Source: Naegleria gruberi (taxonomy: Eukaryota). Taken from it: DNA of 64,000 nucleotides. This document shows, piece by piece, positions 47,743-64,000 of this stretch. The stretch lies in the NCBI GenBank assembly GCA_000004985.1, contig GG738850.1; one strand, given 5' to 3'. The notes beneath the pieces are model-generated. The model was given only the letters and a program-made list of their open reading frames with translations, made no database searches and was not told the origin of the DNA. The position numbers and the translations under genes were made by a program. Position 1 is the first letter of the stretch. Each line of letters begins with the position of its first letter.

Positions 47743-50352
47743 ATGTTTGGAAATGAAACCGTTTCGAGTATGGAGGACATGAATGGCAGCTCAACCAACA
47801 AACCAACAGTCGCACAAGCATCATCATCAACTGATAAGAAGTTTTCAATTATTGTAACGAATGAGGAATCAAAAACCTCAACAGATGTGAATCTAATGGT
47901 GGATCCGCCACTTTATGAAATTGCAAATGAGAATAACCATCTACATACTACCAATATTGTCAACTCGAGAAGACCCTCTAATAACAGCACTACCTCATCA
48001 ATGATACATCCCATTCATGCCAAACCACATCCAATCTATGGCAGAAGGGATACCATCTTTACCTTTGATGAGGTAATCACTCATTTGCCAGAAGGAACTA
48101 ATCAAACTAATCAGCAGCAGCAACTGCCAAGCATTGAAGTGAATGAAAAGCAAAATCCCACACCAGGCAGCAACAATAGTGGGAATTTATTATTTGGATA
48201 TTGTGGGAGAGGAGTGAGGATTAGTCATGTACTATTAATTCTGTTCATCATTCAAGGATTGGTTGGATTGGTTCCATCCCTCATTCTCATGTACACGAGT
48301 GGAAATAGTATTTTGGAAAGAGTTTCTAAATTCCAGGCACAACAAACTCAAACCTATGTGAATTTTGAGATTAGTCGAATTGTTAATACTTCACAATTAG
48401 TCATTCAACATATCAGATTTGAGTTGGAGAATGGATTTACACTTTCAAACCTCACAGAAATGACTTTATTTGCAACTTATTTGAGGAATCTTTATGTGAA
48501 TAGATCTCCACTCACGGCTGTTCAATTTGGCATGTTTATGGATAATTATGTTGGTACATTAGATATTCCTCCAATTTATCCACCAGTAATTGAATATTTG
48601 AATGGGACTGGAGATTTATTGTATCACTATAGATTAGAAGAAGATAGCATCGAAAATCCCTTGCAAGATCGATACCTTTACAATGTTGAACCTTTCAGAT
48701 TCAAACCATCCCATAGACCTTGGTATGTGCCATTTACTCTCCCAAATGCAACAGAAAGAAGATGGTCAGAAATTTATGTTTCCACATTTGGACAGCTCTC
48801 TATCAATACTGCAATGCCTGTCTTTGTAAAGGAGAATATTACAGCTGCAGTATTGTCAGGGAAACCAATTGATCAGTTTAATTTTCAAATATGTGATTGT
48901 AACCACCCTGATCACTTGTATGGAGTATTTGGAGCTCTGTTCGCACTCAAAGGACTCAATTCATTCCTCAATGACACTTCAAGACCTTACAGCTTTATTA
49001 GTTACAGTTTTATTATGCAAAGAAATGGATCTGTCATTGCATCGAGTAGACATAACACGACCACATCCAGTAGCATTCTAGAAGAAGAGGAAGAGATTGA
49101 TCAAGTTGCAGCCTATATTATCAATCTAGGTCTATTCAAAAATAGTACAATTCCAGGTGAATGCACTTTCAAATTTAGAGGAAAGAATGTAGCCATAACA
49201 CCAGTCTATGATAATTATGGACTTTCTTGGGCTATTGTCATTGGATCTAAGGATGCAGATATTTTAAAAGAGCTACTATCGAGTGGAATGACTTCAGTTG
49301 TGGTTTTTATTGTCATTTTAGTTGCAGGATCCTTAGCATTATTTGTGACTGTACAGTTGTTTGCTCAGCCATTAAATAACGTGCACAGAAAGCTTTCTAA
49401 AATTTTGAGTGACAAGAATCTATCAAAGGATTTGTCAAATCCAAAAATTACAACTGCTGGACTGATTTTCTTTGATATTGGAGAAATGGAAAATGGAATT
49501 AATTCGCTCAAGAGAGGAGTTTCAGCATTTTCTAAATTTATTTCACCAACAATAATGAAAAAAGTTATTAGAAATGAACATTATTTGGATGTTGGAATGA
49601 TAATTCAAAACATGTCAATTTTGGTTTTAAGTATTAGTAATTTCTCTCAATTAGCAGAACAAACTGATATTTCTACATTTGTTTCATTAATGACTGATTA
49701 TTTTGGAAGTTTGACAAAGGTGATGGAAGATCATCGTGGATTAATTGACATGATTACAGGCGAAAGATTGCAAGTAGTGTGGAATGACTCATCCATGCCT
49801 GTTGAAGAACATGAAGTGAGAGCATGTAAAGCTGCAATGGAAGCTATAGAAGTTGTTGAAGAATTGAATAACACCTGGATAAAGGAGAAACATTTGGAGA
49901 TGGATTTTTCAGTGTGTATGAGTATTTCGAGTGGAAATATGATGTATGGTAGCATTGGAAGTGAGCATCGATTGAATTTCACAGCCATGGGAGATGATGT
50001 CAATATAGCAGTAAAGTTGGCAAATCTCAATCCACATTATGAGGCCGATATTCTCATTACTGAAAATACCTATCAACATGTAAAGAATGAATTTGTTTGT
50101 TACTTTGTGGACTATATAATATTGAATGGAAAGGAAAGTCCAACCATGATCTACAGTTTGGAATGTGAAAGAAGTGTTGCTAGTGACCTTCAGGTAAAAG
50201 TAGCAACAGATTTGGAATTGGCACGTAACTATTGGTTCCAAAACAATTATAGAGCCATGTACGATATTTGTGAAAGATTGAGTCTCATTTCTCATTCAAA
50301 AATAATTAATAATTTATTGTTAAAAGCAAAAAGAAAAATTACACATAATTAA
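47743..50352 (+). CDS. Receptor-type class III cyclase-homology-domain protein (TM, ~330-aa extracellular sensor region, TM, then cyclase homology domain). Catalytic residues look partly non-canonical.
   Basis: TMs VLLILFIIQGLVGLVPSLILMY and VVVFIVILVAGSLALFVTVQLF. CHD is ...MSILVLSISNFSQLAEQTDISTFVSLMTDYFGSLTKVMEDHRGLIDMITGERLQVVW...FSVCMSISSGNMMYGSIGSEHRLNFTAMGDDVNIAVKLANL...ILITENTY. By eye, metal Asp1 is replaced by Ser, Asp2 by Glu, and the transition-state Arg by Lys; the Asn is kept. Confidence 0.65.
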   Translation: MFGNETVSSMEDMNGSSTNKPTVAQASSSTDKKFSIIVTNEESKTSTDVNLMVDPPLYEIANENNHLHTTNIVNSRRPSNNSTTSSMIHPIHAKPHPIYGRRDTIFTFDEVITHLPEGTNQTNQQQQLPSIEVNEKQNPTPGSNNSGNLLFGYCGRGVRISHVLLILFIIQGLVGLVPSLILMYTSGNSILERVSKFQAQQTQTYVNFEISRIVNTSQLVIQHIRFELENGFTLSNLTEMTLFATYLRNLYVNRSPLTAVQFGMFMDNYVGTLDIPPIYPPVIEYLNGTGDLLYHYRLEEDSIENPLQDRYLYNVEPFRFKPSHRPWYVPFTLPNATERRWSEIYVSTFGQLSINTAMPVFVKENITAAVLSGKPIDQFNFQICDCNHPDHLYGVFGALFALKGLNSFLNDTSRPYSFISYSFIMQRNGSVIASSRHNTTTSSSILEEEEEIDQVAAYIINLGLFKNSTIPGECTFKFRGKNVAITPVYDNYGLSWAIVIGSKDADILKELLSSGMTSVVVFIVILVAGSLALFVTVQLFAQPLNNVHRKLSKILSDKNLSKDLSNPKITTAGLIFFDIGEMENGINSLKRGVSAFSKFISPTIMKKVIRNEHYLDVGMIIQNMSILVLSISNFSQLAEQTDISTFVSLMTDYFGSLTKVMEDHRGLIDMITGERLQVVWNDSSMPVEEHEVRACKAAMEAIEVVEELNNTWIKEKHLEMDFSVCMSISSGNMMYGSIGSEHRLNFTAMGDDVNIAVKLANLNPHYEADILITENTYQHVKNEFVCYFVDYIILNGKESPTMIYSLECERSVASDLQVKVATDLELARNYWFQNNYRAMYDICERLSLISHSKIINNLLLKAKRKITHN

Positions 50353-51383
50353 ACCTTATTAGATTTGGAAAGTAGTGTTTGATTTTCATGAGATTCTTCC
50401 TCAGAACCATACGATAACTCAGAGTCATCTGTGTGATGGTTATTGTTACTGGTACTGTATTGAGAAGATACAGGACGACGAGCCATTTGAATATCCATCT
50501 TTCCAATTCTATTTCTTTCTTGTTCAAATTTCTTCTCAGCACGATATGCATTCACATTATCAACAATGGCCTTGATGAGCAGGGAAATCAACATGATAGC
50601 AATAATGGGTCCAAACATTGTAACCATAGCAACTGGAACATTAGGATTATGAATGGTTGTCTTGCAATATTGGAAAATCATATTGGTTGCAGTGAATCCA
50701 GGAGTAAATGTTTGCATACTTTTCAGTTCAGCACCATTCTTGAATAGAATTGTTGTTTCAGGACCTTCGGAACTTGATTTAGCTGATCCACCTCCAAAAG
50801 TTTTGACATTTGAAAGTAAACTTGTTGGATAAATGACTGAAACTGAAATGTCCTTAATTACTTGAGCAGGATCATTGCCTACAGACCATAGGAATTTTGT
50901 TGAATTTTTAAACGAGAAGAAAGGTCCTCTAATCGAATATTTGTATTCGATTGTAAAAATTTGCATAGTATCAACTTGTTTTGAAAAATCTATCTGAATG
51001 TAGTGATTCTTGCTGTTTGTTGTCGATTTATACACGTCAACATCAACTATTTTGTTACTTGTTGTTGAGACTATTATTGCCGAAACTTGTTCCACATTAT
51101 TTCCAAATGGCATACCCACAGGCAGATTTCTAGTAATTGTCTTGGTTTTACTATCAAAAATATAAGAAACTCTTTCTGTTACTTTCGCAACACACAACAA
51201 ATCACTATTCAATTTAATTTCGGATTCAAATTTTGTTATTGAATAATCTTGTTGTGTAGAATCTTGTACGAAAAGTAAAATAATTACTAGTATAATACAA
51301 AGAGAGAGAAAACCTCTTGTTCTTCCAATGATCCGATCATCATATTTTGAAAAATGTCGTCCCCTGATGATGATTGTAGACAT
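50349..51383 (-). CDS. Hypothetical type I membrane protein (signal/anchor, ~250-aa ectodomain, TM, acidic/S-rich tail).
   Basis: 344-aa ORF. FLSLCIILVIILLFV near the N-terminus and VAMVTMFGPIIAIMLISLLIKAI near the C-terminus. Convergent with the cyclase-like gene, overlapping it by 4 bp. Confidence 0.5.
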   Translation of the reverse strand: MSTIIIRGRHFSKYDDRIIGRTRGFLSLCIILVIILLFVQDSTQQDYSITKFESEIKLNSDLLCVAKVTERVSYIFDSKTKTITRNLPVGMPFGNNVEQVSAIIVSTTSNKIVDVDVYKSTTNSKNHYIQIDFSKQVDTMQIFTIEYKYSIRGPFFSFKNSTKFLWSVGNDPAQVIKDISVSVIYPTSLLSNVKTFGGGSAKSSSEGPETTILFKNGAELKSMQTFTPGFTATNMIFQYCKTTIHNPNVPVAMVTMFGPIIAIMLISLLIKAIVDNVNAYRAEKKFEQERNRIGKMDIQMARRPVSSQYSTSNNNHHTDDSELSYGSEEESHENQTLLSKSNKV

Positions 51384-51834
51384 TTTTTTAAAATGATGAA
51401 ATTTCAGTGACTTGTCCTGACATGATTTTTGGAGGTAATTTGATGAAAAACTCTCAAATCACTCCTCATTAGTCAGTTGGTAATTTTGGCTACAATGCGA
51501 ATATCAAATTTAATTCATCATGTTTTTATTAATATTAAACTGAATTGTAGTGTAAAGTGTTGTTTTTGTTGGATGGTGCTACAATAATAATCAAATATTT
51601 TCATCATCAAATGATTATTATTATTTTAATTAAAAAATTAAATATTTTAATCATCGGGATGAAATAATCAATCAAACGATAAATTGATCAAACCTCATAT
51701 CCGTGAAAGACAAATCAAGTCCAAATAAGAACAATGGATATGCGTTCTTCACAGCTTCAACCTTTGAAAAAAACAAGACGATTTGCTTGCTGAAAATCTT
51801 CTTTGCTCACGGAATCTTTAATTTATTATTTATT

Positions 51835-52597
51835 ATGGCATCACATTGGCAACAATATATTGAAAGGTAAGGAATATTTGAATTCTATGATGATGGATGA
51901 ATATTGTAAAATTATTACAAAATATTTAATATAATATTATAGTAATATTGTAAAATCTAGGTTTTTTACTCATGGAGCAATACACGGACTGAATGGAGCT
52001 AAATGGGCACAATCAGATGGATTGGAAATTACTAAAAAACAAGTGAAGGAATTGTTAAAGATTTTACAAGATGAAAAGTTGTCATCACCACGATTGATTA
52101 ATAGTTTGGTTTCGAATTCACAAGCACTTACTAATGTATCAGAGAAATCTTCCATCTTTTCAAATTCAGGTGATTTATCATTAGTGGTGGAAAATGATGA
52201 ATTGAAACGAAAATTATCAAATCTGTCACAGATCAGTACATCACTGGGTAATGTGGGATTGGAAATTAATTTCAATGGAAATCAAATGTTTAGAGTTGTA
52301 AATGTTGACAAGTATTGTGCCTTATTAGCTTGTTGGAATTTTGGAGATTCGGATAATGCTTCGTCAATTCCATTTTGTAAAGTATTTAATGTAGAAAAGG
52401 GAGAGTTCTTAATACCTCCAACTCATGTATTTTATTGTGTAACCACTAGTATGTGTATTCTGATAGGTTTGGTGAATAATTCATGTGTATTACCAGAAGA
52501 TCATCATAATAATCAAGCCATAGAATTGACAAATTTTGATGTGGCTATGAAAACATTGGACAAGTTTGCAGATTACTTATTGGAATCTGGGTACTAA
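51835..52597 (+). CDS. Profilin-like protein (long form, ~222 aa). Exons are 51835..51866 and 51961..52597, with a 94-bp intron.
   Basis: MASHWQQYIER|FFTHGAIHGLNGAKWAQSDGLE resembles the profilin N-terminus (MSWQxYVD...G...WAQS). The C-terminus ...MKTLDKFADYLLESGY resembles the profilin C-terminal helix (...LGDYLLEQGL). GTAAGG donor, CTAG acceptor, phase 2 consistent. Confidence 0.5.
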
Positions 52598-53101
52598 AAC
52601 AATTTGGTACACTACTAGGAAACTAATTTATTAAAACGACAATTATTTGTTGTAGTTTGATGCAAGATCACATTAGGTTTTTTAGCAATTACAATAATTA
52701 CAATGTATTGTGTCCAAGAATTCTAATGGACAACCACGGTTGATTTTTACTAACACTTAAAGATCTAGATTACTCCCTCTGTCCAGAGCTGCCTGCATAG
52801 CACATTCACTGTCAGTTTTCAATTGTTGATGGTATTTATTGTTCGAATATGGCAGGGCATTCAAAAATTGTAATTTGACGATTCGAAGGGTCCTTTAGAA
52901 AGTCTTATCCATCAAGAAAAAAACGAGAAAAGATCTGTCACAAGGTTTTGCTTATCAACCATATCACAAGCAGTACAGTCGAAATTTTCACAACTGTAGG
53001 TTGGCCAACCATGATTTTTTGTTGTTAATAATATTTGATGGTTTCTTTCGGATATAATTTGACAATGTGGATATTGACAATCTCTCTTCATGGATTAACA
53101 G

Positions 53102-54586
53102 TTGGAAATGATGAGAACACCATCATCTCCACCGACCAACAGCAACTCACCACAACAAGCTAGTATTCTTCTCAACAACAATATTTCTACAAATGTTTCC
53201 TCTTCGAATAAGAAAGTTACTATTTCATCATCAGCAGAGCCAATAGCAATGAACCAATCACAAGTTAATCTTGCCAATCCGAGTGAAAGTGGCAAGTCAG
53301 GAAGTTCGTTTAGTCAAAGTAAGATTACATTTCGTACATGTTGTGGTGTAATTGAGCTGACTTCTATGAAGTTGGCTTGTTTATTTGGAATGTTAGTCAC
53401 TGTTATTGGATTATTAGTTTTGGCTGGTGTTGCAGTTGCAGCCTTTATTACTGCAACTTCCAAGTCGACTGAAATTTTAATTTCTGTTGGCAGAGTTACT
53501 TCACAATTCGAAGGTGCTAATGCCATAATTGTCAGATATGTTTTCGCAGGAACAGCTGAAACATATTCAACAACTTTGGCTACTTATAAGAAATCCTATC
53601 TTGCTCTTCAACAAAATTTGACAAACATTCTGGCAAATCTTAATGATCCTCAAATAGAGACAATTTTCAATTCCACAGCCATAACTGCTGTAAATAATGT
53701 GGATTCCCTAAACACTATGATGATGTATATGGCTGGTGGAGTAACTAACACTCAGCGATCTGATGCAATTGAAAAACTCAATAGTGAAGTTTACAAAAAT
53801 TATTTTACTACTTTCCGTTCAGGTTTGGATGAATTAGTGACCTATGTGCAAGAAAAGGAACAGGTAAAAGATCAGAATATTTTGGCAATCACATTGGTGC
53901 AGCTCATTATTATTGTACTTTCATTATTTGTCATTTTGCCTATCATTATATTTGTGTTTACATATGCCATTAATCGTGACTCGTTATATTTGGAAAAGAT
54001 TCGTCGTGCTAATGCAGTCATGTTGATGGATACAATTGAGGATGAAGGTTTGAGAGCTCTTTTCAAGGTTCATTGTGAAAAGGAAAAGTCGAGTGAAAAT
54101 TTCCTACTCCTTGAAAAGATTCAATATTATCGTTCTTTGTGTGAACGTTCTATAGATTTACAAATGAGATTATTTGGTCAGGATGCCGCTATAAGTGATG
54201 CTCTGAGTGATATTTCGGCAGATTCATCTCACTCCTCAAAGAAAAAGAAGGAATCTCCATTAGAAAGAGAATATAACGAATTGGAGGCAAAGAAGTATGA
54301 AGTTGCTTTTGAAATATTTACTGAATTTTTGGAAGTAACTGGTGATATGGCTGTCAATGTTTCAAAGGTTCTTACAGATTTTGTGAAGGATAAACTTGAC
54401 AAGTTCAATGACAAACAAATTGATACCCTGCCAGAGGACATGTTTGATATTTTAGGAAAAGAAACATGTCTTGTCATGATGGATACTCACCATAGATTCA
54501 AACAATCTCTTGCATTCCAACGTGAAATGAAGATTGACAAGATAAAGGTAGACCAGATAAAAAAGAAAAGGAATATAGAATTTTAA
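53102..54586 (+). CDS. Two-TM sensor-like protein with C-terminal RGS domain (TM, ~170-aa extracellular helical region, TM, RGS).
   Basis: TM1 LACLFGMLVTVIGLLVLAGVAVAAFITA. TM2 ILAITLVQLIIIVLSLFVILPIIIFVFTYAI. RGS is LMDTIEDEGLRALFKVHCEKEKSSENFLLLEKIQYYRSL ... YEVAFEIFTEFLEVTGDMAVNVSKVLTDFV...LVMMDTHHRFKQS. Confidence 0.65.
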   Translation: MEMMRTPSSPPTNSNSPQQASILLNNNISTNVSSSNKKVTISSSAEPIAMNQSQVNLANPSESGKSGSSFSQSKITFRTCCGVIELTSMKLACLFGMLVTVIGLLVLAGVAVAAFITATSKSTEILISVGRVTSQFEGANAIIVRYVFAGTAETYSTTLATYKKSYLALQQNLTNILANLNDPQIETIFNSTAITAVNNVDSLNTMMMYMAGGVTNTQRSDAIEKLNSEVYKNYFTTFRSGLDELVTYVQEKEQVKDQNILAITLVQLIIIVLSLFVILPIIIFVFTYAINRDSLYLEKIRRANAVMLMDTIEDEGLRALFKVHCEKEKSSENFLLLEKIQYYRSLCERSIDLQMRLFGQDAAISDALSDISADSSHSSKKKKESPLEREYNELEAKKYEVAFEIFTEFLEVTGDMAVNVSKVLTDFVKDKLDKFNDKQIDTLPEDMFDILGKETCLVMMDTHHRFKQSLAFQREMKIDKIKVDQIKKKRNIEF

Positions 54587-54645
54587 AGAAATTATTAGTT
54601 GTACAAATTTAGAGCTAGGAGTTTTGATAAATCAATTGACCATAA

Positions 54646-55536
54646 TTAATTAATTCTAGTTTCATTATGAAGTTCTCTCAGTGCATCCCACCAATTTGTA
54701 AATGGTGTATCCATCTTGTCAGCATTGAATTGAGGAATATTATCCTTGATTATTTTTTGCATATGATTAAACATGATTTGATTTCCAAGAGGAGACATGT
54801 GAAGCCCATCACTGAAAGGATGTCCAGTTGTCCACTCATGCATATCAGTCCACAAATCACACAAGTATACATTTCCTCTTTGGTCATTATTATTTCCACT
54901 TGTAACAATTTCTCTAACAGCTTGAGCATACATGGCAGTGTGCTTGTTATCTCTGAAACCTCCTTGAGGTCCAGAAGTTTGATTCCATTGAGTTGCATTC
55001 ATTGGTGGTGGAGTGGTGAGAATAATGTCAATTCTTGATGACACCATTTTCTTCTTCATAATTGAAATCATTTCCTTAATATTCTCAGTGTATCTCTCCA
55101 CAGGAACGTGTTGTTGTGTTGGAGAGTCTGCGAAACAAGCATCATTAGCTCCCATAGTAAAGATGACCAAAACTGGTTGATTCCAACTCTGGGTTGGTTG
55201 TAAAAATGTCTGTTCAAAATCATTCTCCATAATATTCACCAAAAGGTCAGTATTCCATCCAGAAAATCCACGATTAATAATATCTACCATATTAATATAC
55301 CATCCCAAGAATAAATGTTGAAAACCGTTCGGTAATGATGAAAATTGAGTAATCGAATCACCAACAATATACAACATTGGACGATCCCTAACAAAATGAT
55401 AATCCTTTGATGTTACTATTGTTGATGGTTTGACCTTTCCGATGTGAATCGCACCAATGCATGGTTGAAAATTCATCATCATGATGATCATCAACAGTGC
55501 TGTTATTACTAACATAAAACTCTTCAGTTGTTGCAT
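54646..55536 (-). CDS. Secreted SGNH/GDSL hydrolase, IAH1-like esterase.
   Basis: Signal peptide. Block I LYIVGDSITQFS. Block II RGFSGWNT. Block III FTMGANDA. Block V DGLHMSPLGNQIM. Confidence 0.8.
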   Translation of the reverse strand: MQQLKSFMLVITALLMIIMMMNFQPCIGAIHIGKVKPSTIVTSKDYHFVRDRPMLYIVGDSITQFSSLPNGFQHLFLGWYINMVDIINRGFSGWNTDLLVNIMENDFEQTFLQPTQSWNQPVLVIFTMGANDACFADSPTQQHVPVERYTENIKEMISIMKKKMVSSRIDIILTTPPPMNATQWNQTSGPQGGFRDNKHTAMYAQAVREIVTSGNNNDQRGNVYLCDLWTDMHEWTTGHPFSDGLHMSPLGNQIMFNHMQKIIKDNIPQFNADKMDTPFTNWWDALRELHNETRIN

Positions 55537-56102
55537 TTTTTTTGTCGTATTGTAATTTTGTAAAAAAAAAACCTTTTGGCTTAATGGAGAAAATTCGGGG
55601 AATTCATTGTTGCAAATAATTCCTTATTAATATTTGGAGGTTAATTTAATAACAAAAAAATGGCGAAAAGTCAAGTCAGGAGTACATCATGCCTCTGTTG
55701 ATTCTTGGTGTAATTTCACATCTATTAACTCCAAGAATTTCACCACATCATCTCATCATGATTTAAATAATAGTATTAATAGTAATTTTTGGAATTCAAT
55801 CCTTCAATCATGATTTGAAATAATGTTATTTTTTGGAAAAATTCAAGTTGGTACATCATCATAGGAACAACCAACCATCATCATTGTTATTTATCATACA
55901 CCATTATAATAGCAATATTTGTGGAAATAAATCTGATAATAGTAATATTTTAGTGAAATTTAATATTTTCACTAAAATCATCACAGCCAATCTTCTTAAA
56001 CATTAAACTTTTGTCCATTCCATAAACATTCGGAATGAATTCAACATCTTTTCCCTTAAAACCAGCTAATTTTACAATCTTCATTAAGGAACCTTAAAAA
56101 AA

Positions 56103-57386
56103 ATGAGATTCGTCAGAGAGCGTCTTGAAGTCGTTACCTGTTACATTCCTTTCAATGGTGAGGCGGTTGGTGATAACACTTCTCAAAGTTTACAGAAGAC
56201 TCCTGGTAAGAACCATTATCCATCCAATGCTTGCTTTAACGTTTTTTGGTATCAACAACCAACATGGACACCACCTTTCTGCAAGTATCTAATAGAATAT
56301 TATGATACTCTCAAATCATTACCAAGTGCTTCGGAAGGTGCTAGTGCTGTTGTTAGATTAAGTTCCACGAGGCAAACTGGTAACAACTCTTTTGTTCGAA
56401 GTTCAGGCTCTGGATTTTACCTTCTTCCCAACACAATTATTACAACTAGTCATGTTGAAGCTGAACTTGAGAGAATTGGTGGTAAAATAACTGCATTCAG
56501 CAATGCATGGAACAATAGCAATTCAACAATTTTGCCTACCAGGATCAGAACCTTGCATTCTGGGAAAACTATCAAAGATTCCCAATTGGGTAATTTATTT
56601 CCGGTCACTTATAGTTGGGTTGGAAGAGATCCTATCACTACCAAAGTAGGAGACTTTGATTACTTTGATGTCACCGCAATGGACTTTACTACTGGTTCTC
56701 TTGGTAATAAGGTTTTTTTCATTCCTTCTCCAAGAATTTTGCAACCTAATGATGAAATTATTTCTCTTTCTTATCCAGGAGACAAGCATCAACAACCTCC
56801 TTATTCTAGTAGCCTTACTTATGTTGATTGGGCTCCAAGTGAATCCTTTTTGAAGGACAATATCTTTAATGGCTACGGAAAGTTATGTGCAAGTGTTGGG
56901 ACGATTATGCACCCATACAAATTGTCAGAAAATGGATTTGTAGAAAAAGATGAAAACTTTCGTTACGATTCGTCTAATCAAGAATGTTTGGCAAGCTCTG
57001 AATGCTTAATATATGGAAGTTCTGGTGGTGTTATGATTTCAAAATTCTCACAAGTGTATCAAATTGGAGAGTATACATTAGTTGAGTTTAATGCTATCCA
57101 CACTGGTGGAGAGTTTGTTCGATGTTCAGATTGTTTGAAAGAAAGTTCATCTGCTTACATAATTTCTCCACCAGATTCTTGGAGATTGTGTGGAACTTGT
57201 GTTAATAATGTAAACATTTCTTTCAATAATGCAATTACATACTCTACAAGTATTTCAGTTCATTCAAAGCCATTTGTTGAATTTTATTCAAGTGTTATTC
57301 TTCCACAACTTTGTAAACTTCCACTCACAACAATTCCTGATTCACTTATTGAATACTGTCAAATGCATCAAATTAATATCAAATAA
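56103..57386 (+). CDS. Trypsin-like (chymotrypsin-fold) serine peptidase domain protein.
   Basis: His region NTIITTSHV. Candidate Asp DFDYFDVTAMDF. Ser region IYGSSGGVMIS (GDSGG-like). Confidence 0.5.
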   Translation: MRFVRERLEVVTCYIPFNGEAVGDNTSQSLQKTPGKNHYPSNACFNVFWYQQPTWTPPFCKYLIEYYDTLKSLPSASEGASAVVRLSSTRQTGNNSFVRSSGSGFYLLPNTIITTSHVEAELERIGGKITAFSNAWNNSNSTILPTRIRTLHSGKTIKDSQLGNLFPVTYSWVGRDPITTKVGDFDYFDVTAMDFTTGSLGNKVFFIPSPRILQPNDEIISLSYPGDKHQQPPYSSSLTYVDWAPSESFLKDNIFNGYGKLCASVGTIMHPYKLSENGFVEKDENFRYDSSNQECLASSECLIYGSSGGVMISKFSQVYQIGEYTLVEFNAIHTGGEFVRCSDCLKESSSAYIISPPDSWRLCGTCVNNVNISFNNAITYSTSISVHSKPFVEFYSSVILPQLCKLPLTTIPDSLIEYCQMHQINIK

Positions 57387-57545
57387 ATAAACATATTTTA
57401 AAGCTCTCAAAGACAATTCCGAACAATACTTTAGGATCCACATAGCATTGTTTCTTGTGGCAATACAAACAGAGAGGAATCATTTTTTAATTAATAATTC
57501 GAAATGTTTAGTTTATAATTGTTAAAAGTGGAATCTAAGAATAAA

Positions 57546-58145
57546 CTACATTTTGGAAAGGTCTCTTTCGAATACTCTTTCGCATAACATTCTTCCATTA
57601 AATCTGCTCACTCTATTAGTTTGATAGGTGAGATAATTTCTCGAATCTCTCAATTCGAAACCATTATTTCCCAACAATTCCCACAAGGCATGAGTACTAT
57701 CAGTCATGGCATAAGGAACTGCATACGAATCATCAGTTTGACTCATATCCCTCGCCCAAATCAAATTTAATTCGAAATCTTCAAAGACAACTTGAGCAAT
57801 TTGTTGACCTTCCAAATATTCTGAATTATTTGGATAAGAAACTCCAAATAATTCCTTAAAAACTGATGGAGCAATTCTTAATGCTTGGAAAACATCTTTT
57901 GGTCCAATAATTTCTCTCACATTAATGTACTGTTTCGTTGACTTTTTTGCCTGAATCTTATTGACCTTTCCTCCAATCACTGGAATGGAAACTGGATCTT
58001 GAATCATTGGAGAGAATGATCCAGGAGGTGGTGGAGTGCCTCCTCCTACTTTGAAAGAACTGTTTATTCCAGGAGGTGGTGGTGGAGTAAATCCTTGAGA
58101 AGTACTAATATTGCTATTATTGCTTGGTGGAGGTGGTGGAGGCAT
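57546..58145 (-). CDS. Hypothetical protein with proline-rich N-terminus (PPPPPPS...PPPPPG...PPPPG).
   Basis: 199-aa ORF; C-terminal ~130 aa non-repetitive. Confidence 0.45.
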   Translation of the reverse strand: MPPPPPPSNNSNISTSQGFTPPPPPGINSSFKVGGGTPPPPGSFSPMIQDPVSIPVIGGKVNKIQAKKSTKQYINVREIIGPKDVFQALRIAPSVFKELFGVSYPNNSEYLEGQQIAQVVFEDFELNLIWARDMSQTDDSYAVPYAMTDSTHALWELLGNNGFELRDSRNYLTYQTNRVSRFNGRMLCERVFERDLSKM

Positions 58146-58550
58146 TTGTTGGTTGACTTGTTTTTTTGAAGTTGGTTTTCGGTTGTGTCATGTTATTGGA
58201 CTCGTATTTATAGAGTTTAGTTTATCATGATAACATGGTACAGTTGGTAAAATGGAATCAGAAATCACGGTTAAATGAACTCCAAGGTTCTTTTGTTACT
58301 TTGAGTTGAACTGGAAAGAAGAAGAAAAGAGGTGCAACACGGCAATGGACTTGGATCTATCCTACCATTTCAATGAATCGTGTTACGAAATTACTATAAA
58401 AGGTGCACTACTTTTATTTCTATTGTTTTTCACAATATTTTCCCATTTCTTTAAAAAATTTAAAATATTAAAATGAATTCGAAATTTAACAAATTATTAA
58501 ATATCCAATTTCCATAAATGAGACGAACAATCCAAACACACACATACCAG

Positions 58551-58862
58551 TTAGCAGAACTCAGTTAAAGCACTAGTTCTCACACATTTCACTCTATCAC
58601 CAACAATTAATTGTGGTAATTCTACGCCATTGCCATCACTCAAATTCTTATCACTTTGTTTGAAAATGTACATTTTCAAATTGGTCAATATAATTTTCTT
58701 CTGTGATGCAATTTTCTTGTTGATTATTCTTTCGTTTGGAGAAAAGAGTTTCGTATTGGTATAAGAAATTGTTTGTAAGAGAAAATCCGAATTGTCGACA
58801 GGATCATAAAATATATCCATTGATGGATAATAGAAAAGAATGGATGAATGTTGATTGCGCAA
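58551..58862 (-). CDS. Short hypothetical ORF in an otherwise low-coding 1.2-kb interval; may be an exon of an unresolved gene.
   Basis: 103-aa ORF only; weak. Confidence 0.2.
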   Translation of the reverse strand: MRNQHSSILFYYPSMDIFYDPVDNSDFLLQTISYTNTKLFSPNERIINKKIASQKKIILTNLKMYIFKQSDKNLSDGNGVELPQLIVGDRVKCVRTSALTEFC

Positions 58863-59395
58863 AAATCAGGAATTGCCATCTATGGTTTTTTTGAGATATT
58901 GAAATCTTTAGAAATATCCAGAGGTTATTCACCAAATAAATATAACTCCTCTTTATATGAAACAAGGAGGAATTCATGCTATTATTATTTGGAAGAGCCA
59001 CATTGATTGTGGATACTATCTGAACTGAAATGAGGTAGAAAGAAGGCTAACAATATTTAGACAAACGGACATCCATTTGTTAATGACAAGTCAACAGCTG
59101 GCGAAAAGAACTGTATTCCGAGAGATGACAAAACTCCCATCAACATCTGTATCTATTGAACATTATTTGCATGTACATTTTCCTCTTGTTATTTAATGGC
59201 AAATGACAAGTCCAGATGCTACAATTGTATTGTTCAATTAAGGACTTTACTAAATATCTCTTGGTCTAATGACCGAAAAAATTTAAACGAGATGCATTTA
59301 GTATTTCATCAACCTATTCTTAATACTGGCAACTAAAAATGCATGATGATTGAGCATCAAACAAGCTCAATACCCAATAGAAAAAATCATAAAAA

Positions 59396-62066
59396 ATGAA
59401 AGAAACGACACAAGTCATTCCTGTCAGATCCAAGCACGATGCAGAAGATAATACTCAATCTATCGAAGATACTTCAAGCGATAATTTTCAACAAGAAGAC
59501 GCAAGAAAGGTTGCATTCTTTGGTTCAATTAAAATGTGGTTGATTCTAATTATTTCTGTAATTGTATTATTGACAGTTTTTATTCTGTCAGCAATTTGGT
59601 TGAGTAGTTTCATTCCTTCAGTTGTTGAATATAGCAAGGAACTAAGAGATTTTGAATTTGATAATATTGTTGCATTTGTCAAACAAACAATTAGAGAAGT
59701 AAAAATGACAAGTGAAACTGGTAAACATTTAATGATGAAAACACTTGATTTTTCGAATAGAGATCAGATAGAAGTGTTGATTTATCAGTTTTTGAAACAG
59801 CAGTGGACCTATCTTAAAGGTTTAGTTGTTACAAATCACATTGGTGACAATGAAGGAAGGTAAATACTTTACAACAGTTTTAATCTTTACAATATTGCAT
59901 TAATTTCTTTAGACAATATGGAATTATGGATTGGGGAGGAAAACCTACATTATTCAACATCACCACAAAAGATCAACAACTTTATTATTGTAATAATTTT
60001 GATGAACTTGATTATTGTAATAGAAGTTCAACTCCAGACATTCAATTAGGATTTTTTGATTTGACAATTTTGATTAATGCTGGAAATGCACATCCAGGAA
60101 AACCAACCATCACTAATAGTTTCATAGATGCATCACAACCACAGTATACTTTCATTACAATGGTTAATTCTATTGAGTTACCTCAACCAGATTTGAAAGG
60201 AAACAAATTTAAATATTACTTAGGAACAGATTTGTCTGCTGAGACTATTTCTCAATATTTGGCACATGTAACGTTGAAATTGAGTGGTTCTAAGAGTTTT
60301 ATTATTGAAATGGCAACTCAATACATTATTGCAAGTAAGTTTTATAATGAACAAGGTAAAAAGTTTACAATAATTGAAAGATGACAATTCTAATGCAAGG
60401 GTGGCAGTTGTTAATTCAGATGGATCTGTCACAAGACAAACCTATCTCAAAATTGATAATGATGAAAGAGTTTCGTCAATCGCCAAGGTATTGGCTTCGG
60501 AATTGGGAACAGAATTGGATACTATTGGATGTGGAAACAAATCATTAATTACATCTGCAACTGATTACATTTCAGTTTATAGATTATGCACAGATACTGA
60601 TGTTGATTGGTAAGTTAGCAAATCAATTTCGAACTCTATAATAATTATTCGAAATAGGTTGTTTGTGTTGGCAGTTCCTCAATGGAATTATATTAGTTCA
60701 ATTGTTATTGCTGTTGTTTGTGCTACTCTTGGCGCATGTATTATAATTTCTGCAGGTGTTATAACATCTGTCATTATTTCAGTCAAATTAGTGAAACCAT
60801 TTTACAACTTGATTGATTTATTCGAAAGTGTTTCTCATATGGATTTGGATAATTTAGTAATTAATGATTCCAAATTTACAGAAGTTAAACATTTACAAAA
60901 TCATTTCAAAACCATGACAGACAGAATCAAACTTTACAGAGCTTTCATTCCATCGCATTTACTTTCTCAATTAGATCAAGGAGGAGATCAAGTTGACGCC
61001 AAAAAGAAAGCTCATGAAAACGATTCCATTTCTATGGCTTCCTCTCATAAATCCTCTCAGAGATCTTCGAGATTAGACTCCAAACAATCTAGCTTGAGTA
61101 GAAGTCATGCCTCTAGTTCACATCGAAGATATTCGAATGATTTGGATATTTTCTCACTTCATTTGGATCGAAAGAAATTATCCATTGTTGCAATTCATAT
61201 TGAAGGGTTGAATAGATTATTCTCTGAAATATCAGCAGGAGACTGTGTTGATTTGTTGAAAGATTTCTTTGATCATTTGGGATTAGTTTGTCGAACAAGT
61301 AATGGTTATTTGGGAAATTTTGAAAATGATTTAATTTCAATTTCATTCAATGCAAGTTCAAATCAATCGAAACATTCAGAAAAAGCAGCTGCTGCATGTG
61401 TTCAATTAATGGAAAAGTTGAACACAACCAAATCAAAGAAATGGCCAAATCAATTTAAAAAGAAACCTCACTTGATTGAAATTGTTACATTCAGATTTGC
61501 AATTTGTGTTCAAGAATCATTATGTGGAAATTTAGGATCGAATGATTTTAAGAATTTCACAGTTATTTCAAGTGCCAAATTCAATTTGGAATCCATGTTG
61601 GATGTTGCATCAAAATTGAATTTGAATATTGTATTATCTGATAGAGTATTTGCAAATTTAGAGGAACATTATCAAATGAGATATGTTTATACGAAAGAAT
61701 TAATTCCAGATTCACATTATTCATCTCCATTTATTCAACACAAAGAAAATGAAAGAGCACAAATTGAACCAACACATATTTATGAATTGGGTGAAAGCTT
61801 AAATGTTGGAATGGATGGTAAGTTTACAACATTTAACTTTACAAATTTGATTACGTTCTTTTTTATTAGAATGGATGTATGAATTACAAGAAAAGGAAAA
61901 GAAAGCAAAATGGACCAAATACAATCAAGCTTGCAAACTCTTCTTCTCAAATCAATTCGAAGAAGCTAGAGAATTATTCCGAGAATTTCATGAACAAAAC
62001 AATGATGTGGCAGCTGAATTGATGATTAAAAAATGTTCAACTACAACACCTATTAGTGAATTGTAG
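59396..62066 (+). CDS. Second receptor-type cyclase-homology-domain protein, 5 exons: 59396..59859, 59913..60334, 60381..60609, 60658..61817, 61870..62066. TM, extracellular region, TM, then CHD.
   Basis: Four introns of 53, 46, 48 and 52 bp with GTAAAT/GTAAGT donors and AG acceptors; all phases close across five ORF-track segments. TM MWLILIISVIVLLTVFILSAIWL and IVIAVVCATLGACIIISAGVITSVIISV. CHD is LSIVAIHIEGLNRLFSEISAGDCVDLLKDFFDHLGLVCRTSNGYLGNFENDLISISF...IEIVTFRFAICVQESLCGNLGSNDFKNFTVISSAKFNLESMLDVASKLNLNIVLSDRVF. Metal Asp1 is replaced by His and the transition-state Arg is absent, by eye. Confidence 0.65.
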
Positions 62067-62202: not shown

Positions 62203-62382
62203 ATTATTTCTTCTTTCGTGGTCTACCAGGCTTTCTCTTTACTGCTTCTTCAACTTGAGATTTCATTGGTTCTTTGAATTGTGATTTCTTTGGTCTACCA
62301 CGTTTCTTTTTCTTTAATGGTTCCTCTTCTTGTTCCAATTCTTTCTCTTGTTCCAATTCCTTCTCTTGTTCTTGATCATAAT
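62203..62382 (-). CDS. AT-hook protein, C-terminal fragment; the remainder lies in the assembly gap.
   Basis: Minus-strand translation is ...YDQEQEKELEQEKELEQEEEPLKKKKRGRPKKSQFKEPMKSQVEEAVKRKPGRPRKKK*, with two RGRP AT-hook cores. Confidence 0.5.
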
Positions 62383-63004
62383 NNNNNNNNNNNNNNNNNN
62401 NNNNNNNNNNNNNNNNNNNNNNNNNNNNNNNNNNNNNNNNNNNNNNNNNNNNNNNNNNNNNNNNNNNNNNNNNNNNNNNNNNNNNNNNNNNNNNNNNNNN
62501 NNNNNNNNNNNNNNNNNNNNNNNNNNNNNNNNNNNNNNNNNNNNNNNNNNNNNNNNNNNNNNNNNNNNNNNNNNNNNNNNNNNNNNNNNNNNNNNNNNNN
62601 NNNNNNNNNNNNNNNNNNNNNNNNNNNNNNNNNNNNNNNNNNNNNNNNNNNNNNNNNNNNNNNNNNNNNNNNNNNNNNNNNNNNNNNNNNNNNNNNNNNN
62701 NNNNNNNNNNNNNNNNNNNNNNNNNNNNNNNNNNNNNNNNNNNNNNNNNNNNNNNNNNNNNNNNNNNNNNNNNNNNNNNNNNNNNNNNNNNNNNNNNNNN
62801 NNNNNNNNNNNNNNNNNNNNNNNNNNNNNNNNNNNNNNNNNNNNNNNNNNNNNNNNNNNNNNNNNNNNNNNNNNNNNNNNNNNNNNNNNNNNNNNNNNNN
62901 NNNNNNNNNNNNNNNNNNNNNNNNNNNNNNNNNNNNNNNNNNNNNNNNNNNNNNNNNNNNNNNNNNNNNNNNNNNNNNNNNNNNNNNNNNNNNNNNNNNN
63001 NNNN
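62383..63004. other. Assembly gap (622 N).
   Basis: Run of n characters. Confidence 1.
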
Positions 63005-63462
63005 AATATGCTTCAGATTGAACTTTCCTGTTTCTCGGTTGCACTTTAGGTTTGGAAATACATACTCTTTGATTATTCAATGAAAAACTACTTAACCATT
63101 CATTATGATATCTTACAAACTTGTTCTATACATTTAGGAGGAGCTACCCTGAAAGGATGACATCTTTAAATCAAATATTCATCGAACTATAAGGCACAGG
63201 TTTGAAAGACAAATATTGAAAGTTAGAAAAACGAGTAAAAATGAAAATTTTATAATTTAAAATCGGGGAACAGACCAAATGATGGATAACGAACGTTGTT
63301 CCTCCTTGATCGACTAAGTAATTATCGAGAAGGAAGGTTTCTAAATATTTGCAAAATTTCATTCACATCCTTCAATAATAATTTTCAAACCGAAAAATTT
63401 AAAAATAGAATGGATTAATATCAATAATTTTGGAGATGTGGATTATTATCTAGTATTTTAAT

Positions 63463-63604: not shown

Positions 63605-64000
63605 TTAGGGTTTGGGTTGGGTTTGGGTTTGGGTTTGGGTTTGGGTTTGGGTTTGGGTTTGGGTTTGGGTTTGGGTTTGGGTTTGGGTTTGGGTTTGGGT
63701 TTGGGTTTGGGTTTGGGTTTGGGTTTGGGTTTGGGTTTGGGTTTGGGTTTGGGTTTGGGTTTGGGTTTGGGTTTGGGTTTGGGTTTGGGTTTGGGTTTGG
63801 GTTTGGGTTTGGGTTTGGGTTTGGGTTTGGGTTTGGGTTTGGGTTTGGGTTTGGGTTTGGGTTTGGGTTTGGGTTTGGGTTTGGGTTTGGGTTTGGGTTT
63901 GGGTTTGGGTTTGGGTTTGGGTTTGGGTTTGGGTTGGGTTTGGGTTTGGGTTTGGGTTTGGGTTTGGGTTTGGGTTTGGGTTTGGGTTTGGGTTTGGGTT
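63605..64000 (+). repeat. Telomeric repeat array (TTTGGG)n. First unit is TTAGGG, with two TTGGG variants. The G-rich strand runs 5'->3' to the window end, so this is a right chromosome end.
   Basis: About 65 tandem 6-mers from 63605 to the last base. Confidence 0.85.

What the first reader, a model, noticed from the sequence alone, without database searches (positions are those of the whole stretch)
47743..62066. Two receptor-type cyclase-homology-domain genes, both with non-canonical catalytic residues
Both genes (47743..50352 and 59396..62066) share the TM, large extracellular domain, TM, class III CHD layout. In the first, metal Asp1 is replaced by Ser, Asp2 by Glu, and the transition-state Arg by Lys. 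In the second, Asp1 is replaced by His and the Arg is absent, while the Asn is kept in both. They could be pseudo-cyclases or regulatory CHDs, or the two halves of a heterodimer that completes one active site as in mammalian AC C1/C2. One lies about 2 kb from the telomere.
Basis: partly seen in the sequence, partly recalled or inferred. Interest (0 to 1): 0.6.

Follow-up and report, generated by a model that had tools for sequence, protein, structure and literature searches.

The report
Two receptor pseudo-cyclases near a Naegleria telomere
Two intact Naegleria gruberi genes encode membrane receptors of bacterial type whose cyclic-nucleotide-making domain has lost essential catalytic residues, so they are probably non-catalytic relatives within a very large, partly degenerate receptor-cyclase family.

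Summary
The window is a Naegleria gruberi chromosome end with (GGGTTT)n at 63608-64000. Gene 1 (47743-50352, one exon, 869 aa) and gene 2 (59396-62066, five exons, 823 aa by my model) both read TM, ectodomain, TM, class III cyclase-homology domain (CHD). Gene 1 reads S630/M670/E674/C725/T747/N754/K758/N795 where the canon is D/K/D/R/T/N/R/K. Gene 2 reads H552/N592/D596/R651/T673/N681/M685, with no beta7-beta8 Lys. Both ectodomains are divergent dCache_1 sensors. Both proteins are full-length homologues of bacterial dCache-HAMP-CHD(IIIb)-helical-tail cyclases, a family expanded across Heterolobosea (Naegleria, Willaertia, Acrasis). About two thirds of the closest eukaryotic relatives of gene 1 (19 of 30) are degenerate, each in its own way. 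The 21-member Naegleria family of gene 2 is uniformly degenerate. The two genes cannot complete a canonical site together, because both lack metal Asp1, the base-binding Lys and the transition-state Arg. The CHDs are better conserved between paralogues than the ectodomains, so these are maintained pseudo-cyclases, not decaying genes. This is a new member of a known kind, of modest interest.

The parts
47743..50352 (+). Gene 1, single-exon CDS, 869 aa (NCBI 'predicted protein', N. gruberi)
   Evidence: ORF. 100% identical to P0001.
48229..48285 (+). Gene 1 TM1 (aa 163-181)
   Evidence: Hydropathy peak 2.61. Start of the long helix in the AF2 model.
48286..49296 (+). Gene 1 ectodomain, a divergent dCache_1-type double Cache sensor (aa 182-518). 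It keeps the RPWY motif.
   Evidence: Ectodomain-only hhalign against bacterial dCache_1 ectodomains: Prob 99.2%, E=3.5e-19 over 286 columns. 16 of 30 aligned relatives match PF02743. The AF2 model here has low confidence, pLDDT 50-65.
49297..49353 (+). Gene 1 TM2 (aa 519-537)
   Evidence: Hydropathy peak 3.01.
49354..49605 (+). Gene 1 HAMP-like linker and cyclase-transducer-like motif FSKFISPTIM. The conserved Pro is replaced by S601. The spacer to the CHD is the canonical 29 aa.
   Evidence: Aligned to HAMP-containing bacterial homologues. Spacer count.
49606..50148 (+). Gene 1 CHD (aa 622-802), class IIIb type. Catalytic positions: S630 (49630), M670 (49750), E674 (49762), C725 (49915), T747 (49981), N754 (50002), K758 (50014), N795 (50125).
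   Evidence: PF00211 E=3.4e-9. CyaB and CyaC alignments. Position table. Foldseek TM 0.91 to CyaB.
50149..50349 (+). Gene 1 C-terminal three-helix, TPR-like tail. It is shared with bacterial dCache-CHD cyclases and with gene 2.
   Evidence: AF2 helices at pLDDT 81-92. hhalign runs past the CHD towards the tail; the printed alignment is cut off there. Weak TPR_14 hit in the bacterial homologue P0109.
59396..59859 (+). Gene 2 exon 1: cytosolic N-terminus, TM1 (aa 49-67, 59540-59596) and the start of the ectodomain
59913..60334 (+). Gene 2 exon 2 (ectodomain). Its first 37 codons are missing from the annotated model P0010.
   Evidence: My splice gives GRQYGIMDWGGKPTLFNITT..., which matches the N. 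lovaniensis orthologue P0012.
60381..60609 (+). Gene 2 exon 3 (ectodomain, membrane-proximal part)
   Evidence: Intron 60335-60380 is GT..AG. The junction agrees with P0010 and P0012.
60658..61817 (+). Gene 2 exon 4. It holds TM2 (60692-60748), a HAMP-like linker with the invariant motif LYRAFIPSHLL (60749-60982), a Ser-rich disordered spacer (60983-61147) and the CHD (61148-61717). CHD positions: H552 (61196), E554, N592 (61316), E594, D596 (61328), R651 (61493), K670, T673 (61559), N681 (61583), M685 (61595).
   Evidence: Continuous ORF. AF2 model with CHD pLDDT about 90 and spacer below 50. Foldseek to CyaB, CyaC and Cya2 at about 1e-11. Family profile against PDB at 2.9e-10. Codon coordinates.
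61870..62066 (+). Gene 2 exon 5: C-terminal helical tail (WMYELQEKEKK...C) and the stop codon
   Evidence: Same C-terminus as P0010 and conserved across the family. Gene 2's own ectodomain family matches bacterial dCache_1 at Prob 97.7%, E=1.9e-12.
63608..64000 (+). Telomere array, (GGGTTT) x 65.8
   Evidence: TRF score 772. TTTGGG is the published candidate telomere repeat of N. gruberi (PMC3622300).

Best explanation
Both genes are intact members of the heterolobosean expansion of bacterial-type receptor cyclases. The shared layout is a dCache_1 ectodomain, TM, a HAMP/transducer linker, a class IIIb CHD and a helical tail. In both, the CHD keeps its fold but has lost residues needed on both faces of the dimeric active site.

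Neither a homodimer of either protein nor a heterodimer of the two can build the canonical two-metal site that makes cAMP or cGMP. They are receptor pseudo-cyclases.

The most likely mode of action is inferred, not shown. The dCache domain binds a ligand. The CHD still dimerises, with itself or with a catalytically competent paralogue. This either lowers or gates that partner's output in a dominant-negative or modulatory way, or presents a non-catalytic nucleotide or protein-binding surface.

Shown here: architecture, homology, residue identities and conservation pattern. Inferred here: loss of activity, dimerisation partners and regulatory role.
For: Architecture. Full-length profile-profile homology of the gene 2 family to gene 1 plus bacterial dCache-CHD proteins: Prob 100%, E=7e-46 over 672 columns. 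Ectodomain-only matches to bacterial dCache_1: 99.2% and 97.7%. Bacterial full-length homologues carry dCache_1 + HAMP + CHD.

Catalytic loss.
- Gene 1 changes 6 of 8 canonical positions. Gene 2 changes 3 of 8 and has no counterpart for a fourth, the beta7-8 Lys. The roles of these positions are as defined in PMC2576301.
- In the gene 2 family, 0/21 have an acidic Asp1, 0/21 the base-binding Lys and 0/21 the transition-state Arg.

Maintained, not decaying.
- The ORFs are intact with canonical introns.
- The shared substitutions S/M/T/N/K also occur in the gene 1 paralogue P0002, so the loss predates the duplication.
- The CHD is more conserved than the sensor: 72% against 48% for gene 1 vs P0002, and 98% against 67% for gene 2 vs P0011.
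- The gene 2 family is conserved across N. gruberi, N. lovaniensis and N. fowleri, with invariant G662, N663, G665, K670, S677 and N681.

Context. Of the 151 sequences tabulated (gene 1, P0002 and the closest cluster representatives), 112 are fully canonical. The degenerate ones cluster among the Naegleria and Willaertia paralogues. Naegleria is reported to encode at least 81 cyclases (PMC9928731).

Precedent. In chytrid rhodopsin cyclases the CHD of RgNeoR is inactive as a homodimer. CcNeoR4 lacks metal and base-binding residues and a canonical transducer element (PMC10622942).
Against: No activity, expression or interaction data exist here.

Some non-canonical cyclases keep activity with altered base-binding residues. 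Glu for Asp2 and Lys for Arg are conservative changes.

The gene 2 family has conserved acidic residues at Asp1+2 (E/D in 17/21) and at Asp2-2 (E/D in 21/21, where relatives have Ile in 122/151), plus an invariant Lys670. Together these could rebuild a metal or phosphate site.

Higher CHD than ectodomain identity could also come from gene conversion between paralogues. dN/dS could not be computed because the paralogue DNA was not retrievable.

A canonical partner within N. gruberi itself was not identified directly. Canonical members were found only in N. lovaniensis, Willaertia and Acrasis.
Confidence: 0.6

Rival explanations
1. Each protein is one half of a genuine C1/C2-like heterodimeric cyclase, but with a different, complementary paralogue. 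For example, gene 1 could supply Thr, Asn and Lys(Arg) to a partner that supplies the two metal Asp and the beta4 Arg.
For: A clade conserved in N. gruberi (P0042), N. lovaniensis (P0041, P0046) and N. fowleri (P0043) has lost exactly the three metal-face residues (G/S, G, T/S). It keeps K, T, N, R and K/R, which is a C2-like signature. N. gruberi P0057/P0192 (E-Q-D-R-T-P-A) looks C1-like. All three metal-face positions of gene 1 are changed (S630, C725, and Glu for Asp2 at E674), while T747 and N754 are kept and K758 is conservative. Obligate heterodimeric receptor cyclases are known (PMC10622942).
Against: Gene 1 also lacks the base-binding Lys (M670) and the beta7-8 Lys (N795). Even with a perfect partner the composite site would miss two residues and carry Arg->Lys. 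The gene 2 family lacks Asp1 on one face and Lys, Arg and Lys on the other, so it completes no site with any partner. No partner has been identified.
Confidence: 0.17
2. The gene 2 family has a remodelled but working active site. The conserved E/D554, E/D594, D596, R651, K670 and N681 would carry out a modified nucleotidyl reaction or bind nucleotide tightly as a sensor.
For: These positions are conserved across 21 members from three species (21/21 for 594, 670 and 681). The acid at Asp2-2 replaces an Ile that is near-universal in relatives. The CHD is 98% identical between the two N. gruberi paralogues.
Against: The transition-state Arg is hydrophobic in 21/21 and Asp1 is non-acidic in 21/21. 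A 67-114 aa disordered spacer separates the transducer motif from the CHD. Conservation could equally reflect folding or the dimer interface.
Confidence: 0.12
3. Gene 1 and gene 2 pair with each other to complete one active site, as in mammalian AC C1/C2.
For: The two genes lie 9 kb apart on the same strand. There is weak complementarity: gene 2 keeps D596 and R651 (metal face) and gene 1 keeps T747, N754 and K758 (other face).
Against: Both lack Asp1, the base-binding Lys, a true transition-state Arg and the beta7-8 Lys. The best composite site has 4 of 8 canonical residues, the same as a gene 2 homodimer. H552 is not conserved. Six unrelated ORFs lie between the genes. The paralogues P0002 and P0011 are on different scaffolds. 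The lineages have different distributions: no close counterpart of gene 1 turned up in N. lovaniensis or N. fowleri, whereas the gene 2 family spans the genus.
Confidence: 0.05
4. They are decaying or unexpressed subtelomeric gene copies with no function.
For: The location is subtelomeric. The family is very large and many members are degenerate. Gene 1 has close relatives only in N. gruberi.
Against: Both ORFs are intact (869 and 823 codons) and all four introns have canonical GT..AG ends. The degenerate pattern is shared with the paralogue P0002. The CHD is more conserved than the ectodomain. The gene 2 family is conserved across three species with invariant motifs.
Confidence: 0.05

Closest known systems
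Bacterial dCache_1-HAMP-class IIIb adenylate cyclases (e.g. P0064, P0109, P0123, P0182 here), with solved CHD relatives CyaB of P. aeruginosa (3r5g) and CyaC of S. platensis (1wc0/1wc1)
   Same: They share the full-length architecture: TM, double Cache ectodomain with the RPWY motif, TM, HAMP/transducer motif, a CHD with Thr at the base-specifying position, and a helical TPR-like tail. Support: hhalign Prob 100% full length and 97.7-99.2% for the ectodomains alone; CHD fold TM 0.78-0.91 to CyaB.
   Different: The bacterial proteins carry the complete D-K-D-R-T-N-R-K set. Gene 1 changes six of these positions. Gene 2 changes three, has no counterpart for the beta7-8 Lys, and carries a 67-114 aa spacer before the CHD.
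Degenerate halves of heterodimeric class III cyclases: the mammalian AC C1/C2 pseudo-site and the chytrid NeoR/RGC heterodimers (PMC2576301, PMC10622942)
   Same: A CHD that keeps its fold and dimerisation but lacks part of the catalytic set. It is inactive as a homodimer, and the receptor module is retained.
   Different: In those systems each partner keeps one complete face, so one site is functional. Here both faces are damaged in both genes. The closest match is CcNeoR4, which lacks metal and base-binding residues and a canonical transducer element and was non-functional in all combinations tested.
Expanded nucleotidyl-cyclase repertoires of free-living amoebae: Naegleria with at least 81 (PMC9928731), Physarum with 64 and Acanthamoeba with 67 (PMC4758236)
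   Same: Membership of a lineage-specific, massively amplified receptor-cyclase family.
   Different: The amoebozoan expansions are cyclase-kinase fusions or 12-TM types. The family here has a dCache ectodomain, is of bacterial type and is restricted to Heterolobosea. I found no published description of its degeneracy.

Membership tests
Class III nucleotidyl cyclase catalytic domain (CHD, PF00211): fold and homology | Significant profile match to PF00211 or to solved cyclases | tested here: met
   Gene 1: 37 bits against a cut-off of 21.9; CyaB at 1.7e-15. Gene 2 alone fails the Pfam cut-off at 13.8 bits. Its family profile hits CyaB at 2.9e-10, and tblastn with a bacterial CHD gives 8.7e-11.
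Class III nucleotidyl cyclase catalytic domain (CHD, PF00211): fold and homology | CHD fold, judged by structural match to solved cyclase domains | tested here: met
   AF2 CHD pLDDT is about 90 (gene 2) and 80-94 (gene 1). The top Foldseek hits are all cyclases, with TM 0.78 and 0.91 to CyaB.
Catalytically competent class III cyclase | Two metal-binding Asp (beta1 and the beta2-beta3 loop) | tested here: not met
   Gene 1 has S630 and E674. Gene 2 has H552 and D596.
Catalytically competent class III cyclase | Ribose-orienting Asn and transition-state Arg on helix alpha4 | tested here: not met
   The Asn is kept (N754, N681). The Arg is K758 in gene 1 and M685 in gene 2, and is M/L/V in 21/21 of the gene 2 family.
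Catalytically competent class III cyclase | Triphosphate-positioning Arg (beta4) and Lys (beta7-beta8 loop) | tested here: not met
   Gene 1 has C725 and N795. Gene 2 keeps R651, but the Lys-bearing loop is replaced by an insertion.
Catalytically competent class III cyclase | Measured cAMP or cGMP synthesis | not testable with these tools
   This needs an enzyme assay.
Class IIIb subclass (definition from my own knowledge of Linder and Schultz 2003: Thr/Ser replaces the base-specifying Asp) | Thr at the second base-specifying position, and closest solved relatives of IIIb type | tested here: met
   T747 and T673 align with CyaC T1139. The best PDB hits are CyaB and CyaC. The paired Lys is missing (M670, N592).
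dCache_1 (PF02743) extracellular sensor | Profile homology of the ectodomain to the double Cache domain | tested here: met
   There is no direct Pfam hit for either protein. Ectodomain-only family profiles match bacterial dCache_1 ectodomains at Prob 99.2% (E=3.5e-19) and 97.7% (E=1.9e-12). The relative P0058 passes the Pfam cut-off.
dCache_1 (PF02743) extracellular sensor | Predicted double PAS-like fold | tested here: inconclusive
   The gene 1 ectodomain model has pLDDT 50-65, with a long helix followed by two alpha/beta modules. Confidence is too low for a fold search. The gene 2 ectodomain could not be submitted because its sequence is spliced.
HAMP linker (PF00672) | Profile match between TM2 and the CHD | tested here: inconclusive
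   Only 4 of 30 aligned relatives, all bacterial, match PF00672. Genes 1 and 2 align to that region in hhalign but give no direct hit.
C1/C2-type complementary heterodimer formed by gene 1 and gene 2 | Each partner keeps one complete face, so that one composite site has all the catalytic residues | tested here: not met
   Both lack Asp1, the base-binding Lys, the transition-state Arg and the beta7-8 Lys. The best composite has 4 of 8.
C1/C2-type complementary heterodimer formed by gene 1 and gene 2 | Physical interaction of the two proteins | not testable with these tools
   No multimer prediction or interaction data were available.

The most novel reading that the evidence does not exclude
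The gene 2 family is invisible to Pfam and has at least 21 members in three Naegleria species. It may not be a dead cyclase but a neofunctionalised CHD. Its pocket is remodelled: conserved acids at 554, 594 and 596, Arg651, and invariant Lys670 and Asn681. A Ser-rich disordered spacer uncouples the CHD from the transducer helix. On this reading the domain would bind or convert a nucleotide in a new way under control of a dCache receptor.
Probability: 0.12. Interest if true: 0.6.

Novelty: new member of a known kind. Interest (0 to 1): 0.3.

Why it matters
Naegleria carries one of the largest cyclase repertoires known in a eukaryote. Counts of 'cyclases' have been read as counts of cAMP or cGMP sources. 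This locus suggests otherwise. Two thirds of the closest eukaryotic relatives of gene 1 (19 of 30), and every sampled member of the gene 2 family, lack essential catalytic residues. The real signalling network may therefore contain many ligand-binding pseudo-cyclases and probably some C1/C2-like heterodimers.

The profile comparisons also show that divergent dCache sensors are common in heterolobosean receptors. An earlier survey found Cache in only a single Naegleria protein (PMC4822843).

For N. fowleri, a pathogen, the same families exist. Knowing which members are catalytic matters for any attempt to target cyclic-nucleotide signalling.

Tried and rejected
I used the exon 4 translation instead, so the gene 2 ectodomain was not modelled.
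It returned only P0002 plus bacterial proteins, even after the low-complexity N-terminus was removed. The exhaustive representative search was needed to see the heterolobosean family.
- The look-up of encoding contigs found no record for the paralogues P0011 and P0002. dN/dS and synteny of the paralogous loci could not be computed. Per-domain protein identity was used as a weaker proxy.
- Pfam on gene 2 family members P0013 and P0022 returns nothing at E<=0.01. Pfam cannot be used to define this family.
- A direct comparison of the gene 2 and gene 1 ectodomain profiles gives only Prob 77.8% over 112 columns. Each matches bacterial dCache_1 strongly, so homology is inferred through the bacterial intermediates.
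- N-glycosylation sequon density does not distinguish ectodomain from cytosolic parts in this Asn-rich proteome. I dropped it as topology evidence.
- hhalign without a gap puts gene 2 F680 opposite the catalytic Asn. HMMER places a one-residue gap and aligns the invariant N681. I accepted the latter because N681 is invariant and sits in the first turn of helix alpha4 in the model. This remains an alignment choice.
- Literature searches for described degenerate CHDs in Naegleria found none.
- A tblastn scan of the window found no third CHD gene.
Full report
**Where the window comes from**

Gene 1 translates to a protein 100% identical to an NCBI 'predicted protein [Naegleria gruberi]' on a 707,703-bp contig. 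The window ends in 65.8 copies of GGGTTT at 63608-64000. TTTGGG is the repeat proposed as the N. gruberi telomere in a genome survey (PMC3622300). The G+C content is about 34%. A 622-N assembly gap at 62384-63005 lies between gene 2 and the telomere. The '2 kb from the telomere' statement is therefore approximately right (1.5 kb as assembled) but not exact.

**Gene models**

Gene 1 is one uninterrupted ORF, 47743-50352, 869 aa.

Gene 2 needs four short GT..AG introns of 53, 46, 48 and 52 nt. The exons are 59396-59859, 59913-60334, 60381-60609, 60658-61817 and 61870-62066, giving 823 aa. The deposited model (P0010, 786 aa) omits 37 residues, GRQYGIMDWGGKPTLFNITT..., that are present in the N. 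lovaniensis orthologue P0012. I regard the 823-aa model as better. The whole CHD lies in exon 4, so splicing does not affect the catalytic-residue calls.

**Layout**

Hydropathy finds two strong TM segments in each protein: gene 1 at aa 163-181 and 519-537, gene 2 at aa 49-67 and 384-402. They enclose 337 and 316 residues.

**The C-terminal domains are true CHDs**

- Gene 1 passes Pfam PF00211 (E=3.4e-9, 37 bits against 21.9). It matches CyaB (3r5g) at 1.7e-15 and CyaC (1wc1) at 8e-12. Its AF2 CHD (pLDDT 80-94) matches CyaB at TM 0.91, rmsd 2.6 A.
- Gene 2 alone is below Pfam's cut-off (13.8 bits, E=0.045), and two family members give no Pfam hit at all.
- A profile of the 21-member gene 2 family hits CyaB at 2.9e-10 and the guanylyl cyclase Cya2 at 1.2e-8.
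- The AF2 model of gene 2 exon 4 has CHD pLDDT of about 90. All of its top Foldseek hits are cyclases at about 1e-11.

**Catalytic positions**

The HMMER alignment to CyaC has a chain-to-residue offset of 976. This reproduces, without adjustment, the residue numbers I recall for that enzyme: D1017, K1057, D1061, R1117, T1139, N1146, R1150 and K1184. The roles of these positions are two metal Asp, a beta4 Arg, a ribose Asn, a transition-state Arg and a beta7-8 Lys, split over the two monomers. They are as described for class III cyclases in PMC2576301.

| Position (CyaC) | Role | Gene 1 | Gene 2 |
|---|---|---|---|
| D1017 | metal Asp1 | S630 | H552 |
| K1057 | base-binding Lys | M670 | N592 |
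| D1061 | metal Asp2 | E674 | D596 |
| R1117 | beta4 triphosphate Arg | C725 | R651 |
| T1139 | base-specifying Thr | T747 | T673 |
| N1146 | ribose Asn | N754 | N681 |
| R1150 | transition-state Arg | K758 | M685 |
| K1184 | beta7-8 triphosphate Lys | N795 | loop replaced by an insertion |

Sources: gene 1; gene 2.

- G555 sits between the predicted beta1 and alpha1 of gene 2, as in the canonical D-I-x-G-F-T. This fixes H552 as the Asp1 equivalent.
- The Asn assignment in gene 2 depends on a one-residue insertion between Thr and Asn. HMMER places it and hhalign does not. N681 is invariant in the family and lies in the first turn of alpha4, so I accept it.
It misses four further substitutions (M670, C725, N795 and N592), the absence of a beta7-8 Lys in gene 2, and the retention of Asp2 in gene 2.

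**The ectodomains and the full architecture**

- The exhaustive search with gene 1 found 37,760 relatives.
- The best full-length ones are from Willaertia magna, Naegleria spp. and Acrasis kona.
- They are followed by thousands of bacterial-type proteins of about 700 aa. Those I checked carry dCache_1, often HAMP, and a CHD.
- Ectodomain-only profile comparisons give Prob 99.2% (E=3.5e-19) for the gene 1 family against bacterial dCache_1 ectodomains. The gene 2 family gives 97.7% (E=1.9e-12).
- A full-length comparison of the two families gives Prob 100%, E=7e-46 over 672 columns. It covers TM1, ectodomain, TM2, linker, transducer motif and CHD, and runs on towards the C-terminal helical tail.

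The two genes are thus distant paralogues of one ancestral architecture of bacterial type. An earlier survey reported Cache in only one Naegleria protein (PMC4822843). The divergent ectodomains here escape Pfam.

**How unusual is the degeneracy?**

- I tabulated 151 sequences: gene 1, its paralogue P0002 and the closest cluster representatives. Of these, 112 have the complete canonical set.
- The exceptions are concentrated among the 30 closest, heterolobosean hits, where 19 are degenerate, each in a different way.
- One pattern is systematic. P0042 (N. gruberi), P0041 and P0046 (N. lovaniensis) and P0043 (N. fowleri) have lost exactly the three metal-face residues but keep K, T, N, R and K/R, a C2-like signature.
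- N. gruberi P0057/P0192 looks C1-like.
- The gene 2 family is uniformly degenerate. It has 0/21 acidic at Asp1, 0/21 Lys and 0/21 Arg. It has 21/21 Asn681 and 21/21 Lys670, 19/21 acidic at Asp2 and 17/21 Arg651.
- It also carries conserved acids at Asp1+2 (17/21) and at Asp2-2 (21/21, where relatives have Ile in 122/151).
- The family has a 67-114 aa Ser-rich, low-confidence spacer between the invariant transducer-like motif LYRAFIPSHLL and the CHD. Relatives of gene 1 have about 29 aa there.

**Are the genes maintained?**

- The gene 1 paralogue P0002 shares S, M, T, N and K at the same positions (S-M-D-Y-T-N-K-K). The loss therefore predates the duplication.
- Between paralogues the CHD is more conserved than the sensor. 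It is 72% against 48% for gene 1 vs P0002, and 98% against 67% for gene 2 vs P0011.
- The ORFs and splice sites are intact.
- This argues against pseudogenes. Gene conversion is not excluded, and dN/dS could not be computed.

**Heterodimer test**

| Dimer | Metal face | Other face | Canonical residues |
|---|---|---|---|
| Heterodimer, site 1 | gene 2: H552, D596, R651 | gene 1: M670, T747, N754, K758, N795 | 4 of 8, plus one conservative change |
| Heterodimer, site 2 | gene 1: S630, E674, C725 | gene 2: N592, T673, N681, M685, none | 2 of 8 |
| Gene 2 homodimer | gene 2 | gene 2 | 4 of 8 |

- Pairing with gene 1 therefore adds only a Lys in place of the transition-state Arg.
- H552 is not conserved in the gene 2 family.
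- The genes are separated by six unrelated ORFs: DUF2207, an RGS-like TM protein, a GDSL lipase and others.
- Their paralogues sit on different scaffolds.
- The C1/C2 reading for this pair is not supported.

**Mechanism**

I commit to the following at about 0.6. Both proteins are dCache-gated receptor pseudo-cyclases. They cannot make cyclic nucleotide as homodimers or together. They act through CHD dimerisation, with themselves or with competent or complementary paralogues, to modulate output or to provide a non-catalytic signalling surface.

The nearest documented parallel is the chytrid NeoR/RGC system. There RgNeoR's cyclase domain is inactive as a homodimer. CcNeoR4, which lacks metal and base-binding residues and a canonical transducer element, is non-functional in all tested pairs (PMC10622942).

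Rivals:
- completion of a site with another paralogue (0.17);
- a remodelled working site in the gene 2 family (0.12);
- gene 1 + gene 2 complementation (0.05);
- pseudogenes (0.05).

**Verdict**

Degenerate CHDs, dCache-CHD receptors and Naegleria's cyclase expansion are all known kinds, and these are uncharacterised new members. The uniformly degenerate, Pfam-invisible gene 2 family with its conserved remodelled pocket is the only part with some upside.

Noticed in passing
window 63608-64000: The telomere array is (GGGTTT) x 65.8 at 98% match, at the very end of the window. It agrees with TTTGGG, proposed as the candidate N. gruberi telomere repeat from genome data (PMC3622300).
   Followed up: yes
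window 62384-63005: A run of 622 N (an assembly gap) lies between gene 2 and the telomere. The distance from gene to telomere, and any gene in the gap, are unknown. An 18-nt repeat (TCTTGTTCCAATTCCTTC x 2.4) abuts the gap at 62328-62371.
   Followed up: partly
window 59860-60023 (gene 2 exon 2 start): The deposited gene model (P0010, 786 aa) skips 37 codons that are conserved in the N. lovaniensis orthologue P0012. A 53-nt intron (59860-59912) restores them and gives 823 aa.
   Followed up: yes
window 60983-61147, and the gene 2 family alignment A1: The gene 2 family carries a Ser/Asn/His-rich spacer of 67-114 aa, predicted disordered, between the invariant transducer-like motif LYRAFIPSHLL and CHD strand beta1. 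Relatives of gene 1 have about 29 aa there. It may uncouple the CHD from the sensor or be a phosphorylation-regulated linker.
   Followed up: partly
related proteins P0041, P0042, P0043, P0046 and P0057/P0192: One clade is conserved in N. gruberi, N. lovaniensis and N. fowleri. It has lost both metal Asp and the beta4 Arg but keeps Lys, Thr, Asn, Arg and Lys, which is C2-like. N. gruberi P0192 (E-Q-D-R-T-P-A) looks C1-like. This suggests that real heterodimeric receptor cyclases exist in Naegleria.
   Followed up: partly
window 43302-45011 (-) and 53102-54586 (+): Two ORFs have RGS-domain matches: 28.9 bits (above cut-off) and 22.9 bits (just below the 23.9 cut-off). The second also has hydrophobic TM-like stretches. 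Together with the two receptor CHD genes, this subtelomeric stretch is rich in signalling genes.
   Followed up: partly
window 50349-51383 (-): An ORF for a DUF2207-type membrane protein converges on gene 1 and overlaps its stop codon by 4 bases. A GDSL lipase ORF lies at 54646-55536 (-).
   Followed up: no
gene 1 ectodomain, window 48286-49296, and relatives: Gene 1 keeps the RPWY part of the dCache motif (FKPSHRPWY, against YDPRxRPWY in bacteria). The Tyr is replaced by Phe. By eye, the acidic residue of the GVxGxD segment is also lost (GVFGALFAL). From my recollection of the amino-acid-binding dCache motif, this suggests the ligand is not an amino acid. I did not test this.
   Followed up: no
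literature: A 2016 survey states that Cache occurs in a single Naegleria protein (PMC4822843). Profile-profile comparison here indicates divergent dCache_1 ectodomains in two large heterolobosean receptor families that Pfam mostly misses.
   Followed up: partly
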